Of a stretch of DNA of 64,000 nt, positions 43,250 through 49,292 are shown piece by piece. A model generated the notes under the pieces. The model saw only the letters and a list, made by a program, of their open reading frames with translations. It searched no databases and was not told the DNA's origin. Source of the stretch: Paramecium tetraurelia (taxonomy: Eukaryota); assembly GCA_000165425.1 (NCBI GenBank), contig CT868219.1, forward strand, positions 314,728 to 378,727, read 5' to 3'. Made by a program: the position numbers and the translations under genes. Each line of letters begins with the position of its first letter. Position 1 is the stretch's first letter.

Positions 43250-44133
43250 TCATTACCAAGATATTATCGTACAATAATAAATATTATAAATCAATATATT
43301 AAATTCCACCTGTTTAATTATTTTTTACTCTCTCCTGTTAACTAATTACTTTATTCTCAATATGCTATCCCACATTTAAGATCTCCTCATATCCCCTAGA
43401 TACTTAATCTCTGGACTATTAATTAAATTAGTTATTTTTATGAGTTAGAGTAATAAATTACTATATTACAACTAATATTTGTATTTTTATAAGGATTTTA
43501 TAACTAATTTATTTATTTTATTTTAGAATTCACTACCTTTAGTTTATTTTCACTACTATATATTAGAACTCCAATTTATATCGTCATAACATCAAAGAAA
43601 AACTTAACAAATTTTCTCATATTAAGTATTGAGTTTTAGATGAATTATTTCAATGTTTATTACTTTATAATATATGTCTTGTTTTGTGATTATAGTAAAT
43701 CTATAGTTTCATTGTTAAGGCTAATTTCTATGTTACTTTTTTTAATGTTTATAACGTGTTATTAAATTACATATATCTAACTCTAAGAAAATAAAATATT
43801 TCTAGAATTTGAAATAATCCAAAGATTGCAACAACATAAATTATTAAAAAATTAAAGGATGGTTTTAATTTATCTGGCTTAATATTAGATTTTTGCATTT
43901 CCACAAATATATATTTTATATTTCCTAGATTGTCGATTCTTATTTTAAATTCTTAATTTTATACTTTTCTTGAATGAATTTTTAGAATAATTTCAACTAG
44001 GTTGTTAATAAAATTGAGTGACTATTAGGATTGATTACTTTATCTGCTAATAAATATACATTTATATGTAATATAAAGATTATATCCAATTTTACAAGAA
44101 TAGTTCATAAAATTTAATATGAATACTATAAAA

Positions 44134-45133
44134 TCATTAATATGCTGCAACAATCTGATTGAGACTTTCATTCACCTCGTAATCAATATTAAAAAACTAT
44201 TTTGGAACTTATTAAAATTTATTGATGGTTTTTGCCAATATATTCACATTACTGCTATGGTTACTTATCTAAGCAATTCCAGGATAGGCTTTCTCAAGAA
44301 TGCCCATGTAAGAAGGAACTTAGGTGATTTCTTAGACCCACTTGACCTATTCTAAATTGGGTTCTCCTCTTATAATTAATCCTGTTCTATTGAATTTTCC
44401 TTCCTAATAATTAATACCTCCAAAATTATTAGAAAAAGCATTAACATAAGTGTAATCAAAACCACATGACAAAAACTTTTAATCGTAGTCTAAAAATAGA
44501 TGTTAGGAGAATGTTGTCAAATCTAATTCTTTCTTATAAGATTGATTAATTGTAGCCAAACAAAAACTTAAGAATTATGAAATATTTCTTGGAGGATAGG
44601 ATGTATATTATTTATTGTCCAAAAATACACTTCCATTGATCTACAAGCACACCTCTGCAAATTCTTTCAGCATTTCATAGCATTTTAGTAAACTTAATTG
44701 CTAAGAATATGATATTTAATCTTCAATCAAATTCACAAAATAAAATGGAACAGTAGGTATCAATTATTATTATTCTTTGATGTAATCGTCGTAATTTTAA
44801 TTTGTTGTATTAATAACAAGGACTCCTTGTAGATTTTCACATTTCTCAACCATCTATCTGAATGAGGAAAACTATCAGATATATAAAATTACGTACATTC
44901 TATTTTGCATATATTTTCTTCTTTTGAAATTGTGAATCAGAATCAACGAATACAGTTTTAGGAACAAATTGGCCATTTTAAGTTTCATAATAAAATGATT
45001 TGGCTAAGAAATCTGATTCCTTGTTTAAGAGATTCAAATCCTGTATTAGATTTTCAGTGGCCAATTATTCTTGCAAATGATCTCCTATAATGCCCCCATT
45101 CCAACCCAAGTTGAGTATGATTATTTCCTTCAT
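44134..45133 (-). CDS. Highly divergent, shortened tubulin-like protein (324 aa)
   Basis: MKEIIILNLGWNGGIIG, FYYETQNGQFVPKTVFVD, RQMVEKCENLQGVLV, GKFNRTGLIIRGE, AQISNHS, ESLNQIVAAYQ; single 25-nt intron at 44872-44896. Confidence 0.8.
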
Positions 45134-45222
45134 TTCTTTATTTTATATATTAATGAATTAGTTAATTATATGAGACCAATAATTTGGAATAAATTATTAA
45201 AAGATTTATTTAGTATTTTGAA

Positions 45223-45758
45223 ATGGGAAAATTGTAAGCAATTGTAATATGGCTAGCTTGAAACCAGGTCGTTTAGTAGTTATGCTTGCCGGTAGATAAG
45301 CTGGAAAGAAGGCTATTTTGATTAAAGCAAATGAAGAATCAACTAAAGTAAATCAAATGTGGATTTATTTTAGGATGCAAAATTCCCTAATGGTTTAGTG
45401 GTTGGTATCTAGAGATATCCCAGAAAGGTAACCAAGAGAATGGGTTAAAAGCAAATCAGAAAGCGAACTACATTGAAGGTGTTCATTAAATAATTAAATC
45501 TTAATCACATTATGCCAACAAGGTAATGATTATATACAATTTTATTTTAGATATAGATTAGAGGAATCAACATTGAAGGAAGTCAGAGACAGAATTGAGA
45601 GAGTTAAGGAAGCTGAATTAAAGAATGTTGAAAAAAGAAAAGAATTGAGAAAGAATCTTAGAAAATACTTAGCTGAGAAATACAGAACATTACCAGCAGG
45701 TAGTTTGGCTGATAAGAAAGCTTAATCAAGATTCCTATTCTCAAAATTGAGATTCTGA
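45223..45758 (+). CDS. RPL27: 60S ribosomal protein eL27
   Basis: MGKFLKPGRLVVMLAGRQAGKKA, LVVGIQRYPRKVTKRMG, NLNHIMPTRY, ends FLFSKLRF; three introns. Confidence 0.96.
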
Positions 45759-47525: not shown

Positions 47526-48142
47526 TCATTAGATTTATTATTGCTGTTATTACTTTTACAATTATGCTTGTTTCCATTGTTTTAAATACTCGATTATTTA
47601 TAAAATGTTTTGCTCTAATTAAGGCACTTCCTCATTATTCAACTCCATAATAATATTTTGTTTATAAGAACTAAACATAATTACAATATTAAACAACCTT
47701 TCGACCTCATCTTTGCTGACATCTAGAATTTCACACTCGATATTCTCTGTTATCTTCTTATCTTCGTATCCTCTGGCTTTGAGTCTGTCATATAAGACAG
47801 TGTTGTTGGTCCTTAGTAACACAACTAAGTCGAACCACTAAATTTATAACTCTGAAATACTCGTTCAGGGAAGAATGAAGATGTATGAAAATCAATGATC
47901 ATTCCTCCTGCTGACATAGCATCTTCTAATTCATCACATACCATGTCCTAATCAAATTCAGGCACATTAAATTCTTAATTCCATTCCTTATACAATTTCT
48001 TTTGATTTATTAGCAACCCAATATCAACATATTGGAGACCCTCGATATGTTCACTCAACAATTTCCCTAAGGTGCTCTTTCCAACTCCTGGTGTACCAGT
48101 AACTAAAATGTTTGGCTTTTACCTATTATTTTCAATTTCCAT
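47526..48142 (-). CDS. AK6: Adenylate kinase 6 / Fap7 / CINAP
   Basis: [59 protein letters not shown]; two introns. Confidence 0.93.
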
Positions 48143-48201
48143 AAATTAATTATGAATTGTAAGAATAAATTAAAGTCTTATATTCATTTAAGGTTTAGAA
48201 G

Positions 48202-48274
48202 GCGGTTGTGGTGTAGTGGTTATCACGTCAGTCTCACACACTGAAGGTCCCCAGTTCGAAACTGGGCAATCGCA
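48202..48274 (+). tRNA. tRNA-Val(CAC)
   Basis: Acceptor GCGGTTG/CAATCGC, D-arm GTGTAGTGGTTATCAC, anticodon arm TCAGT-CTCACAC-ACTGA, T-arm CCCAG-TTCGAAA-CTGGG, T-run terminator. Confidence 0.95.
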
Positions 48275-48458
48275 TTTTTTTGTTAATAATATATATTATA
48301 TTAAAATTTATTATAAATTTATCCTCCCATTTTTGATTATGTATTTTTCATCATAATCATACAATGTATGAGATTGATATTATATCCAAAAAAGAATTAT
48401 TGATAACTGTAAGATATTGGACATATTTAATAAAATTCTTTTTTTAATCTAAATTTAA

Positions 48459-49292
48459 ATGAAAGTACCATCTTTGGAAGGAGAAATGTTTATGACAGCA
48501 GTATATGCTCCGAGTGCCAGAGCCTCTTGCAGAAGCTGTTAGGCTAAAATAGCCAAAGATGAACTTAGATTAAGCAATATTGTGGATGAAGATCATTATC
48601 ACCAACAACTTCATTACCATGCAGATTGTTTCTAATTAAAACCAGATTTTAAGAATGCAACCTATAAAGATATCTTTCATGTAGAAAATTTAACAAAGGC
48701 AGATCAAGAAAAAGTCAAGGCTATTCTTGAAAAACTACAAAAAATGGAATACAAAAAGAAACCTTAATAAAAAAAAGCTAATTCAAAATCTAAGAATAAC
48801 AAATAAAAAAAAAGTGAACTGGAAGATGGTGGCGATAGTGGGGATGATAACAAAAAAACCAAGAAATAGAGGAAAGAGGTAGCAAAAAAGGATAAAAAAT
48901 TAGAGACTACCAAAAAAGCAGAATCATATGAAAGTCAGAGTGATGAAGATGAGCCTGGCATCCTTGTACTTTATGATAAGCCATAAAAGGAGGAATTCAG
49001 GAAGATCCAATAAGATTTAGAGAAAAAGACAGCAGGTTAATTGAAGTCGATGCTAAAAGCGAATGATCAAACATAAATGGGAAATAAAGCAGAACTTATT
49101 GAGAGAATCGCTGACTGTATGATTAAGGGATGTTTAGAGAAATGTCCCAATTGCTCTGGAGGAAGACCAAAATTTAATCCAACGTAGAAAGTCTTCAAAT
49201 GTCCAGGATACATGGATGACACAGAATTTAGATTTTGCAATAAAGTTTATGGGCCAAAAGATCTCAAGAGAATTCCCTGGGTTGATGTTTGA
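48459..49292 (+). CDS. PARP-type zinc finger + PADR1 (Zn3) protein without catalytic domain
   Basis: Intronless 277 aa: YAPSARASCRSCQAKIAKDELRL...HYHADCF (zf-PARP); basic/acidic linker; LKSMLKANDQ..GNKAELIERIADCMIKGCLEKCPNCSGG...FKCPGY.....FC (PADR1). Confidence 0.88.

What the first reader, a model, noticed from the sequence alone, without database searches (positions are those of the whole stretch)
44134..45133. Minimal tubulin lacking the GTP-binding signature
Seen: colinear tubulin landmarks from MKEII to ..VAAYQ in only 324 aa. The segment between VFVD and RQMVEKC is much shortened (no NN(W/Y)AxG loop), GGGTGSG is replaced by NTTNQNY, and there is no acidic tail. The frame is fully open with a clean intron. 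Known: Paramecium has extra divergent tubulins (eta, theta, iota, alpha-like). Inference: a nucleotide-free pseudo-tubulin acting as cap, adaptor or folding factor, possibly an unnamed class.
Basis: partly seen in the sequence, partly recalled or inferred. Interest (0 to 1): 0.7.

Follow-up and report, generated by a model that had tools for sequence, protein, structure and literature searches.

The report
Shrunken GTP-loop-less tubulin relative in Paramecium
This is a real, spliced, expressed and strongly conserved Paramecium gene for a 324-residue protein that descends from tubulin but has lost the loops tubulin needs to hold GTP and build microtubules, so it probably works as a binding module, not a filament subunit.

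Summary
The gene model holds. On the minus strand, exon 45133-44897, a 25-nt intron and exon 44871-44134 give 324 aa under the ciliate code. The product is identical to the uncharacterised P. tetraurelia protein GSPATT00011552001. RNA contigs lack exactly the predicted intron, and stranded oligo-dT reads show a low-level minus-strand transcript.

Nine intact 320-324 aa copies in five aurelia species are 86-96% identical. Both whole-genome-duplication copies are kept in three species, so it is not a pseudogene.

Tubulin descent is firm for residues 1-100 (hhalign E 1e-10; Pfam Tubulin at its cut-off). It is only weakly supported beyond that: profile score z about 2, colinear placement, language-model and Foldseek leads. 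My shuffle control shows that the eye-visible "landmarks" after residue 100 are no better than chance.

The tubulin GTP signature is absent in 9 of 9 copies. The H2-S3-T3 segment is deleted, the lattice loops are trimmed and there is no tail.

Outside Paramecium only three ciliate fragments match among 1.84 billion proteins, and the gene is not in the published ciliate tubulin catalogue.

Verdict: a lineage-restricted, nucleotide-free tubulin derivative. This is a new variant of a known kind. Its function is untested, and cap or adaptor and folding-cofactor roles remain open.

The parts
44134..45133 (-). Whole coding region of the mini-tubulin gene (324 codons plus TGA, one intron). It equals P. 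tetraurelia GSPATT00011552001 / CAK75951.1 / A0CYT4.
   Evidence: sequence and translation; identical database protein P0010.
44897..45133 (-). Exon 1, residues 1-79. It is the tubulin-like S1/T1/H1/S2 part and the only segment with strong similarity to tubulin.
   Evidence: Pfam PF00091, residues 3-68 matching profile positions 1-55 of 190: E 5e-7 alone, and 33.0 bits against a cut-off of 33 in the full protein. hhalign on 1-79: E 1.3e-10.
44872..44896 (-). 25-nt intron (GTACG...GATAG), phase 0, after codon 79.
   Evidence: Contigs X10 record 1 and X3 record 9 both lack exactly 25 nt at 44872. Fragment P0013 from another ciliate ends ...KQNV at the same site.
44134..44871 (-). Exon 2, residues 80-324 plus the TGA stop (44134-44136).
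   Evidence: hhalign on 80-324 against tubulins: E 6e-4, aligned 82-255 to 121-328, with 0 of 40 shuffles reaching the score.
45083..45106 (-). T1-loop equivalent GWNGGIIG (residues 10-17). The tubulin glycines G10, G13 and G17 are kept; Q11 is W and Q15 is I.
   Evidence: G10, G13 and G17 nearly invariant across the family plus 29 tubulins.
44872..44939 (-). Short linker, residues 65-83 (interrupted by the intron). It replaces about 52 residues of tubulin, so H2, S3 and the T3 (NNWA-type) loop are deleted.
   Evidence: Conserved tubulin columns N101, N102, A104, G106 and G111 fall in the gap. pLDDT is below 50 for 68-79 in the model. The same short length is seen in fragment P0013.
44824..44859 (-). 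H3/S4 motif RQMVEKCENLQG (residues 84-95), matching tubulin iRK..E.CD.LQGF.
   Evidence: R84, C90 and Q94 identical to columns conserved in 80% or more of the tubulins.
44791..44811 (-). NTTNQNY (residues 100-106), at the place of the tubulin signature GGGTGSG (T4 loop). About 13-16 residues of T4 and early H4 are missing.
   Evidence: G143-G150 columns are deleted. Signature present in 0 of 9 family members and 26 of 29 tubulins.
44497..44526 (-). T7-loop/H8-like stretch LDLTTFSQHL (residues 195-204). T199 stands where alpha-tubulin has its catalytic Glu (role recalled from the tubulin literature).
   Evidence: D196, T198, F200 and L204 are the only nearly invariant columns once the distant fragments are added. 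Alignment to tubulin LNVDLxEFxTNL. This region alone is not significant.
44098..45144 (-). Minimum extent of the transcript (short UTRs).
   Evidence: X3 contig records 7 and 9 and X10 record 1. Stranded oligo-dT reads in X21 and X22 cover 44104-45174 with the first mate on + only.

Best explanation
The gene encodes a Paramecium-lineage offshoot of the tubulin family that kept a trimmed tubulin core and lost nearly everything that makes tubulin a GTP-driven polymer.

Lost parts:
- the H2-S3-T3 segment;
- the T4 GGGTGSG signature;
- most of the M-loop, the H10-S9 loop, the S9-S10 loop and the H11-H12 loop;
- the acidic tail.

Shown: it is transcribed from the minus strand and spliced as predicted. 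It has been held almost unchanged in five aurelia species, with both whole-genome-duplication copies retained.

Inferred: it cannot hold GTP in the tubulin way and cannot enter a normal microtubule lattice. It therefore acts as a stable, stoichiometric binding module, a pseudo-GTPase.

My most likely concrete mode, at about 30%, is an end terminator or adaptor. In this mode it docks by its retained T7/H8-side surface onto the nucleotide-bearing face of an ordinary tubulin. Threonine sits where alpha-tubulin has the catalytic glutamate. Because its own upper face is gone, no further subunit can add. A Misato-like role with the tubulin-folding machinery is next, at about 15-20%.
For: Gene and transcript:
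- The joined product is identical to P0010.
- Contigs of X10 (976 nt) and X3 (662 nt) lack exactly the 25-nt intron.
- Raw oligo-dT reads of X21 and X22 cover the gene at depth 0-20, all with the first mate on +. The eL27 gene on the + strand next door gives first mate on - at depth up to about 1700.

Selection:
- Nine copies of 320-324 aa have no indel apart from one shorter annotated start. Mean column identity is 94%.
- The tree shows two duplicate clades (support 100/98) with branches of 0.08 or less. Both copies are kept in P. tetraurelia, pentaurelia and primaurelia.

Tubulin descent:
- Pfam PF00091 scores 33.0 bits at a cut-off of 33, E 9.5e-8.
- hhalign of the family against 29 tubulins gives probability 96.8%, E 2.2e-10 and 247 columns, aligning 1-255 to 3-328. 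A reversed control gives E 0.36.
- Residues 80-324 alone give E 6e-4, and 0 of 40 shuffles reach that score.
- The language-model search on residues 100-324 alone returns only tubulin or Tubulin_C clusters, scores 0.83-0.85.
- Foldseek on the family-only model returns only tubulin-superfamily entries in all 41 printed rows, at E 1e-3 to 6e-3.

Loss of GTP and lattice elements:
- The signature is present in 0 of 9 copies.
- 19 conserved tubulin columns are deleted, including N101, N102 and G143-G150.

Low mRNA level relative to eL27 fits a substoichiometric factor.
Against: - After residue 100 the homology signal is weak. hhalign gives E 0.054 for 100-324, and 1 of 40 shuffles reaches the score.
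- The landmark count there (9 of 38) is below the shuffle mean of 10.1.
- Pfam Tubulin_C does not match at E 10 or lower.
- The confident model (pLDDT 83, pTM 0.87) and its tubulin matches used an alignment that contained 29 tubulins, so they are circular.
- With family sequences only, pLDDT was 43, and the Foldseek TM-scores were about 0.2.
- Loss of GTP binding is inferred from sequence and was not measured.
- The cap idea is weakened because the H10-S9 loop on the same (minus-end) face is also deleted.
- No partner, localisation or phenotype is known.
- dN/dS could not be computed, because no orthologous DNA was within reach.
Confidence: 0.6

Rival explanations
1. Tubulin-folding or assembly cofactor. 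As proposed for Misato, the tubulin-shaped protein occupies or stabilises the CCT/prefoldin machinery and is not part of microtubules.
For: - Precedent: Drosophila Misato resembles a tubulin monomer, binds TCP-1 and prefoldin stoichiometrically and is needed for TCP-1 stability (PMC4510148, abstract read).
- The part of this protein that stays most tubulin-like is the N-terminal 80-100 residues.
- All lattice-contact loops are trimmed.
- mRNA level is low.
Against: - No Misato Pfam model (PF10644, PF14881) matches at E 10 or lower.
- The family is confined to Paramecium and close relatives, whereas the folding machinery is universal.
- There are no interaction data.
Confidence: 0.17
2. Chimera. 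Only the first 100 or so residues descend from tubulin, and the remaining 220 or so adopt another fold, so it is a tubulin N-terminal fragment fused to unrelated or de novo sequence.
For: - Exon 2 alone finds nothing in the PDB (0 hits at E 10 or lower).
- It gives no Pfam tubulin hit.
- hhalign on 100-324 gives E 0.054.
- Landmarks after residue 100 are at chance level.
- The family-only AF2 model has low confidence.
Against: - The first 100 residues are only half of the tubulin nucleotide-binding domain and could hardly fold alone (structural knowledge, recalled).
- The weak alignments of 80-324, 100-324 and 165-324 all fall at the colinear tubulin positions, with z of about 2 to 5.
- The language-model search on 100-324 alone points only to tubulin or Tubulin_C clusters.
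- Foldseek alignments of the family-only model span whole tubulin chains.
Confidence: 0.12
3. Still a working mini-tubulin. It binds a nucleotide through a remodelled pocket and forms its own filaments or co-polymerises.
For: - T1-loop glycines G10 and G13 are kept, as is the T2 aspartate D64.
- Asparagines stand at or near the base-contacting N206 and N228 positions: N158 or N165, and N175.
- A T7/H8-like stretch is kept.
Against: - The T3 and T4 loops that hold the phosphates are deleted in 9 of 9 copies.
- The M-loop and other lattice loops are trimmed.
- Precedent: an archaeal FtsZ without the GTP motif did not polymerise, even after the motif was restored (PMC3684127, passages read).
Confidence: 0.07
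4. Decaying pseudogene or annotation artefact.
For: It has lost the family's hallmark motif and about 125 residues. Catalogues of tubulins would call such a gene a pseudogene by their rule of missing considerable parts (PMC4202323, passage read).
Against: - Nine intact, indel-free copies in five species at 86-96% identity.
- Both duplicates kept in three species.
- Spliced minus-strand transcript.
- More distant ciliate fragments at 45-63% identity share the intron site and the short T3 region.
Confidence: 0.02
5. It is one of the already named Paramecium tubulins (eta/zeta, theta, iota, kappa or a divergent alpha or beta).
For: - Paramecium has many divergent isoforms (PMC11321004, abstract and passages).
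- The best-scoring true tubulins for the family profile are a divergent alpha-like group (33-37 bits, against 21-25 for ordinary alpha).
Against: - Table S2 of PMC11321004 lists 35 P. tetraurelia tubulins, all named except one that sits on a tiny scaffold.
- For the 17 of 35 whose exons I saw, coding length is 1215 nt or more, and none has 237+738-nt exons.
- That study required PF00091 at E below 1e-20 or BLASTP at 1e-5. This protein reaches only 9.5e-8.
- I could not map the old gene id to the PTET ids, so the check is indirect.
Confidence: 0.02

Closest known systems
Eukaryotic tubulins (Pfam PF00091 + PF03953), especially the divergent ciliate-only alpha-like isoforms
   Same: - The N-terminal S1-T1-H1-S2 and the H3/S4 motif (E.C..LQG) are clearly homologous.
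- The order of predicted strands and helices follows tubulin.
- pI of about 5 is like tubulin.
- The best-scoring true tubulins are a divergent alpha-like group.
   Different: - 324 aa against about 450 aa.
- No GGGTGSG signature and no T3 loop, H2 or S3.
- M-loop, H10-S9, S9-S10 and H11-H12 loops trimmed, and no acidic tail.
- Tubulin_C is not detectable.
- Class of origin is unresolved. PDB profile scores are gamma 19.8, beta 18.6 and alpha 17.0 bits.
Paramecium theta, iota, kappa and eta tubulins
   Same: They are lineage-restricted, divergent tubulin paralogues of Paramecium, expanded by whole-genome duplications (PMC11321004 and PMC4202323, passages).
   Different: Those are full-length: coding sequences of 1227-1431 nt in Table S5. 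They nest inside the beta, alpha or zeta classes. This gene is 975 nt and falls below the detection thresholds used in that study.
Misato / DML1 (MSTO1)
   Same: A tubulin-shaped protein that is not a microtubule subunit and acts by binding the TCP-1/prefoldin complexes (PMC4510148 abstract). It shows how such a protein can work.
   Different: It is a pan-eukaryotic family with its own Pfam models (PF10644, PF14881), which do not match here at E 10 or lower. From memory, Misato proteins are considerably longer than this one. This family is Paramecium-restricted.
Signature-less FtsZ/tubulin relatives of archaea and phages
   Same: The same evolutionary theme: a stripped tubulin/FtsZ core that lost the GTP signature. 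The Nitrosopumilus FtsZ-like protein does not polymerise (PMC3684127). Earlier notes of this scan describe phage and Thermococcales cases.
   Different: They are unrelated lineages and independent losses, and no sequence relationship closer than the superfamily was found. This one is a eukaryotic nuclear gene derived from a true tubulin.

Membership tests
Tubulin/FtsZ superfamily (homology) | Significant sequence or profile match to the Tubulin/FtsZ GTPase domain | tested here: met
   PF00091 scores 33.0 bits, equal to the gathering cut-off of 33, E 9.5e-8, but covers only profile positions 1-55 of 190. hhalign against 29 tubulins gives probability 96.8% and E 2.2e-10. The reversed control gives E 0.36.
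Tubulin (functional GTPase subunit) | Tubulin signature [SAG]GGTG[SA]G in the T4 loop (pattern recalled from memory) | tested here: not met
   Present in 0 of 9 family members and 26 of 29 tubulins. Columns G143-G150 are deleted. NTTNQNY stands in its place.
Tubulin (functional GTPase subunit) | T3 loop (NNWA-type) with H2 and S3 | tested here: not met
   About 33 residues are absent between S2 and H3. N101, N102, A104, G106 and G111 fall in the gap. The region is just as short in the distant fragment P0013.
Tubulin (functional GTPase subunit) | Tubulin C-terminal/intermediate domain (PF03953) | tested here: inconclusive
   There is no Pfam hit at E 10 or lower. hhalign on 165-324 scores 18.0 against shuffles at 14.2 +/- 2.0, and 1 of 40 shuffles reaches it. 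The language-model search on 100-324 returns Tubulin_C clusters at 0.83-0.85, which is a lead only.
Tubulin (functional GTPase subunit) | Whole tubulin fold | tested here: inconclusive
   AF2 with tubulins in the alignment gives pLDDT 83.1, pTM 0.87 and TM 0.81-0.87 to tubulins, but this is circular. AF2 with the family only gives pLDDT 43.3. Its Foldseek hits are all tubulins but at E about 1e-3 and TM about 0.2.
Alpha/beta tubulin | Acidic C-terminal tail and lattice loops (M-loop, H1-S2, H10-S9) | tested here: not met
   The protein ends at ...VAAYQ. Deletions map to about 281-300, 338-351, 362-373, 411-422 and 434-449 in Euplotes alpha numbering. The alignment is uncertain in this region.
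Tubulin GTP binding and polymerisation | Binds GTP and assembles | not testable with these tools
   This needs recombinant protein. The complex prediction gave no answer.
Named Paramecium classes (eta/zeta, theta, iota, kappa, alpha/beta isoforms) | Identity with a catalogued gene | tested here: not met
   PMC11321004 Tables S2 and S5 list 35 genes. Exons were seen for 17 of them; all are 1215 nt or longer and none has the 237+738 pattern. The check is indirect because the ids could not be mapped.
Misato/DML1 | Match to PF10644 (Misat_Tub_SegII) and PF14881 (Tubulin_3) | tested here: not met
   Neither model is listed at E 10 or lower for exon 1, exon 2 or the full protein.

The most novel reading that the evidence does not exclude
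Paramecium evolved its own protein terminator of microtubule growth out of a tubulin gene. This would be a nucleotide-free mini-tubulin that docks by its T7/H8 face on the exposed GTP site of the last beta-tubulin (or another tubulin). It cannot trigger hydrolysis, because Thr sits where the catalytic Glu would be. It offers no upper face for the next subunit. It would thereby set the fixed lengths of cortical, basal-body or ciliary microtubules.
Probability: 0.15. Interest if true: 0.85.

Novelty: new variant of a known kind. Interest (0 to 1): 0.55.

Why it matters
Tubulins are among the most constrained proteins known, and their GTP pocket is their hallmark. This is a nuclear, selected, expressed tubulin descendant that shed the pocket, about 125 residues and every lattice loop, yet has been held almost unchanged through speciation with both duplicates retained. 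That would make it a natural "minimal tubulin core".

It could show which parts of the fold are needed for stability as opposed to assembly. It could also reveal a new way for cells to regulate tubulin or microtubule ends. In addition, it shows that published tubulin catalogues, which use strict domain thresholds, miss such derivatives.

Paramecium allows the obvious tests: GFP tagging and RNAi by feeding.

Tried and rejected
- Whole-genome search of the window's own assembly: none is held.
- Metagenome contig scans for DNA of the distant relatives. The alignment with fragments was not accepted as a query. As a result no orthologous DNA was available and no dN/dS was computed.
- Indexed sequencing runs: no RNA holder was listed. 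The raw-read RNA runs and the contigs I laid did show the transcript.
- Complex prediction with Euplotes alpha-tubulin, GTP and this protein: no answer, score 0.00; my alignments were not used. This is not evidence either way.
- I searched for a named Paramecium or ciliate alpha-tubulin to use as partner and found none among the 120 rows listed.
- AF2 with family sequences only: pLDDT 43, unusable as a model.
- MAFFT landmark counting after residue 100 is no better than shuffles, so I dropped it as evidence.
- Class of origin (alpha, beta or gamma) is not resolved. PDB profile scores lie within 3 bits of each other, and my tubulin set is alpha-heavy, so I built no superfamily tree.
- Gene ids GSPATT/GSPATG/GSPATP 00011552001 and GSPATT00011125001 occur in no paper's full text.
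- The supplements of PMC3091696 hold no occurrence. Three files were searched and two PDFs were unreadable.
- Accession numbers are absent from the PMC11321004 supplements, which use other ids.
- Literature searches for a described signature-less Paramecium tubulin found none.
- Exon 2's KdpA Pfam hit (13.5 bits, E 0.021) is rejected as noise.
Full report
**Gene model**

The finding lies on the minus strand. Read with the ciliate code (table 6), the ATG at 45133 opens 79 codons that run to 44897. A 25-nt intron of the usual Paramecium size, GTACG...GATAG, occupies 44896-44872. A further 245 codons run from 44871 to 44137 and are followed by TGA. Twenty-four in-frame TAA/TAG codons are read as Q.

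From base composition alone, the chance of 324 codons without TGA is about 0.0012. The joined 324-residue product is identical to a database protein, P0010. That protein is the uncharacterised P. tetraurelia GSPATT00011552001 (CAK75951.1, A0CYT4).

**Expression and splicing**

I laid four runs on 43900-45400.

- Contig record 1 of X10 (976 nt, 44126-45126) and record 9 of X3 (662 nt, 44458-45144) each lack exactly 25 nt at 44872. The spliced form therefore exists.
- Raw oligo-dT RNA-seq reads of X21 and X22 cover 44104-45174 at depth 0-20. All have the first mate on the + strand.
- The neighbouring + strand gene gives only first mate on -, at depths up to about 1250-1700. Its first exon matches ribosomal protein eL27 (E 1e-6).
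- The mini-tubulin RNA therefore comes from the minus strand, at roughly a hundredth of the eL27 level.
- X3 and X10 are only guessed to be RNA, but a contig without the intron is hard to explain otherwise.

**Conservation**

The word-index search found two clusters. They hold nine proteins from P. tetraurelia (2), pentaurelia (2), primaurelia (2), sonneborni (2) and octaurelia (1).

- All are 324 aa, except one annotated from a later start (320 aa).
- There are no internal indels. Identity to the window protein is 86-96%, and mean column identity is 94%.
- A maximum-likelihood tree splits them into two clades with support 100/98. Branches are 0.08 changes per site or shorter.
- One clade holds the second copies of tetraurelia, pentaurelia and primaurelia. 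The duplication therefore predates these species, and both copies survived in all three.
- From memory, silent sites between aurelia ohnologues are close to saturation. If that is right, 14% protein divergence implies strong purifying selection.
- I could not compute dN/dS. No genome is held for this window, and the metagenome scans found nothing.

**Range of the family**

A profile of the nine proteins, scored against 1,835,955,588 representatives, gave only five hits at E 0.001 or lower:

- the family's own cluster;
- three short fragments of 61-69 aa, from Logan, ENA and JGI contigs of 0.7-1.2 kb;
- one true tubulin fragment (P0015, E 1.8e-4).

The three fragments are 45-63% identical to residues 20-80, 146-209 and 194-262. 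Each ends where the Paramecium protein has a TAA/TAG glutamine or the intron. P0013, for example, ends ...KQNV, which reads into a GT at the same intron site. They therefore come from other ciliates with the same gene structure. P0013 also has the same short S2-to-intron stretch, so the T3 deletion is old within the family. Nothing was found in Tetrahymena or elsewhere.

**How far the tubulin relationship reaches**

The N-terminus is beyond doubt.

- Pfam Tubulin covers residues 3-68: E 5e-7 for exon 1 alone, and 33.0 bits in the full protein, exactly at the cut-off.
- PDB searches list tubulins almost exclusively.
- hhalign of the family against an alignment of 29 tubulins (A3) gives probability 96.8%, E 2.2e-10 and 247 columns, aligning 1-255 to 3-328.

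I then split the query and added controls.

| Query residues | hhalign result | Aligned to tubulin | Control |
|---|---|---|---|
| 1-79 | E 1.3e-10, score 66 | 1-68 to 1-73 | reversed tubulins E 0.53 |
| 80-324 | E 6e-4, score 33.3 | 82-255 to 121-328 | shuffles 15.1 +/- 3.5; 0 of 40 reach it |
| 100-324 | E 0.054, score 20.2 | 174-303 to 229-400 | shuffles 14.7 +/- 2.4; 1 of 40 reaches it |
| 165-324 | score 18.0 | colinear | shuffles 14.2 +/- 2.0; 1 of 40 reaches it |
| 256-324 | not significant | not colinear | none above chance |

A blunter test fails. In a MAFFT alignment, 9 of 38 conserved tubulin columns after residue 100 are identical. These are P118, N175, L204, F212, R247, G248, N283, F298 and Y323. 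Thirty column-shuffles of that region give 5-14 identities (mean 10.1), and the reversed region gives 11. The landmarks that an eye, or MAFFT, finds in the last two thirds are therefore not evidence by themselves.

Three further leads are independent of my tubulin alignment.

- The protein-language-model search puts the whole protein next to tubulin/FtsZ clusters (0.90, 179 of 256 features).
- The same search on residues 100-324 alone points to tubulin or Tubulin_C clusters (0.85-0.83). These scores count as leads only.
- The AF2 model from family sequences alone is poor (pLDDT 43.3). Even so, its strand and helix order follows tubulin, and all 41 printed Foldseek rows for it are tubulin-superfamily entries: eukaryotic, Asgard, Odin and Btub. 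Their alignments span whole chains, but at E 1e-3 to 6e-3 and TM about 0.2.

The confident model (pLDDT 83.1, pTM 0.87; TM 0.81-0.87 to tubulins) used an alignment that included 29 tubulins. It is a threading picture, not a test. I put the odds that the whole protein keeps a tubulin-type fold at about 80-85%.

**What is missing**

Mapped on a Euplotes alpha-tubulin, the family differs as follows:

- about 33-34 residues between S2 and H3 are absent (H2, S3 and the T3 loop; N101, N102, A104 and G106 deleted);
- 13-16 residues comprising the T4 signature and the start of H4 are absent (G143-G150 deleted), with NTTNQNY on the spot;
- there is an 8-residue insertion in T5;
- there are deletions around the M-loop/H9, the H10-S9 loop, the S9-S10 loop and the H11-H12 loop, and of the whole tail.

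The exact borders after residue 100 are uncertain for the reason given above. The signature pattern, recalled from memory, occurs in 0 of 9 family members and 26 of 29 tubulins.

Kept are the T1 glycines (G10, G13, G17), D64, the H3/S4 motif and R247-G248. A T7/H8-like stretch, LDLTTFSQHL, is also kept. Its D196, T198, F200 and L204 are the only nearly invariant columns when the distant fragments are included.

**Mechanism**

- Shown: a selected, expressed protein of tubulin descent without the phosphate-binding loops.
- Inferred from established tubulin structure (recalled): without T3 and T4 it cannot hold GTP in the tubulin manner. Without the M-loop and the other contact loops it cannot sit in a normal lattice. 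It should therefore act by binding, as other pseudo-enzymes do.
- Most likely concrete mode (about 30%): an end terminator or adaptor that uses the T7/H8 side.
- Second (15-20%): a Misato-like cofactor of the folding machinery. Misato is tubulin-shaped and binds TCP-1 and prefoldin (PMC4510148, abstract).
- Precedent: an archaeal FtsZ lacking the motif does not polymerise (PMC3684127, passages).
- The only complex prediction gave no answer.

**Comparison with what is known**

Reviews and catalogues place Paramecium theta and iota within beta, kappa within alpha, and eta with zeta (PMC4202323 and PMC11321004, passages).

- Table S2 of PMC11321004 lists 35 P. tetraurelia tubulins: 16 alpha, 8 beta, 2 gamma, 2 theta, 2 iota, one each of delta, epsilon, eta and kappa, and one unnamed on scaffold 325.
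- For the 17 whose exons I saw, coding length is 1215 nt or more, and none has 237+738-nt exons.
- That study's inclusion thresholds would miss a protein with PF00091 at E 9.5e-8.
- I could not map the old id to PTET ids, and I did not see the exon rows of the other 18 genes.
- The gene ids occur in no paper's full text, and two literature searches found no description.
- Misato membership fails: there are no PF10644 or PF14881 hits.
- Among true tubulins, the best-scoring ones are a divergent alpha-like group (33-37 bits, against 21-25 for ordinary alpha). This hints at the parent but does not prove it.

**Verdict**

It is overstated for the C-terminal landmarks. The pseudo-tubulin reading stands, but the function is open. 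This is a new variant of a known kind, of moderate interest, and directly testable in Paramecium.

Noticed in passing
window 45249-45520 (+): A divergently transcribed neighbour starts 115 bp from the mini-tubulin ATG. Its first exon (MASLKPGRLVVMLAGRQAGKK...) matches ribosomal protein eL27 (E 1e-6). Reads reach depth of about 1250-1700, and a short intron begins after 45348. About 14-48% of reads carry other letters at 45269, 45282 and 45302, probably from cross-mapping of the near-identical ohnologue.
   Followed up: partly
window 47642-48424 (-): An ORF with an AAA_18 P-loop kinase-type domain (E 3e-14). It is probably one exon of a larger gene.
   Followed up: no
window 48459-49289 (+): An ORF with a PARP-type zinc finger (E 5.9e-14), PADR1 domains and a weak SAP domain. 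This is a PARP or DNA-ligase-III-like N-terminus.
   Followed up: no
proteins P0015, P0017-P0020 (unnamed Logan/JGI contigs): A group of divergent alpha-like tubulins begins MKEV... and is at most 44% identical to ordinary alpha-tubulins. Two genes share each of two contigs (15,640 bp and 2,421 bp). This group is the best tubulin match to the mini-tubulin profile in the whole 1.84-billion-protein library.
   Followed up: partly
proteins P0005, P0007 (P. sonneborni): Both P. sonneborni copies fall inside one duplicate clade instead of one in each. This suggests gene conversion, or loss followed by re-duplication, in that species.
   Followed up: no
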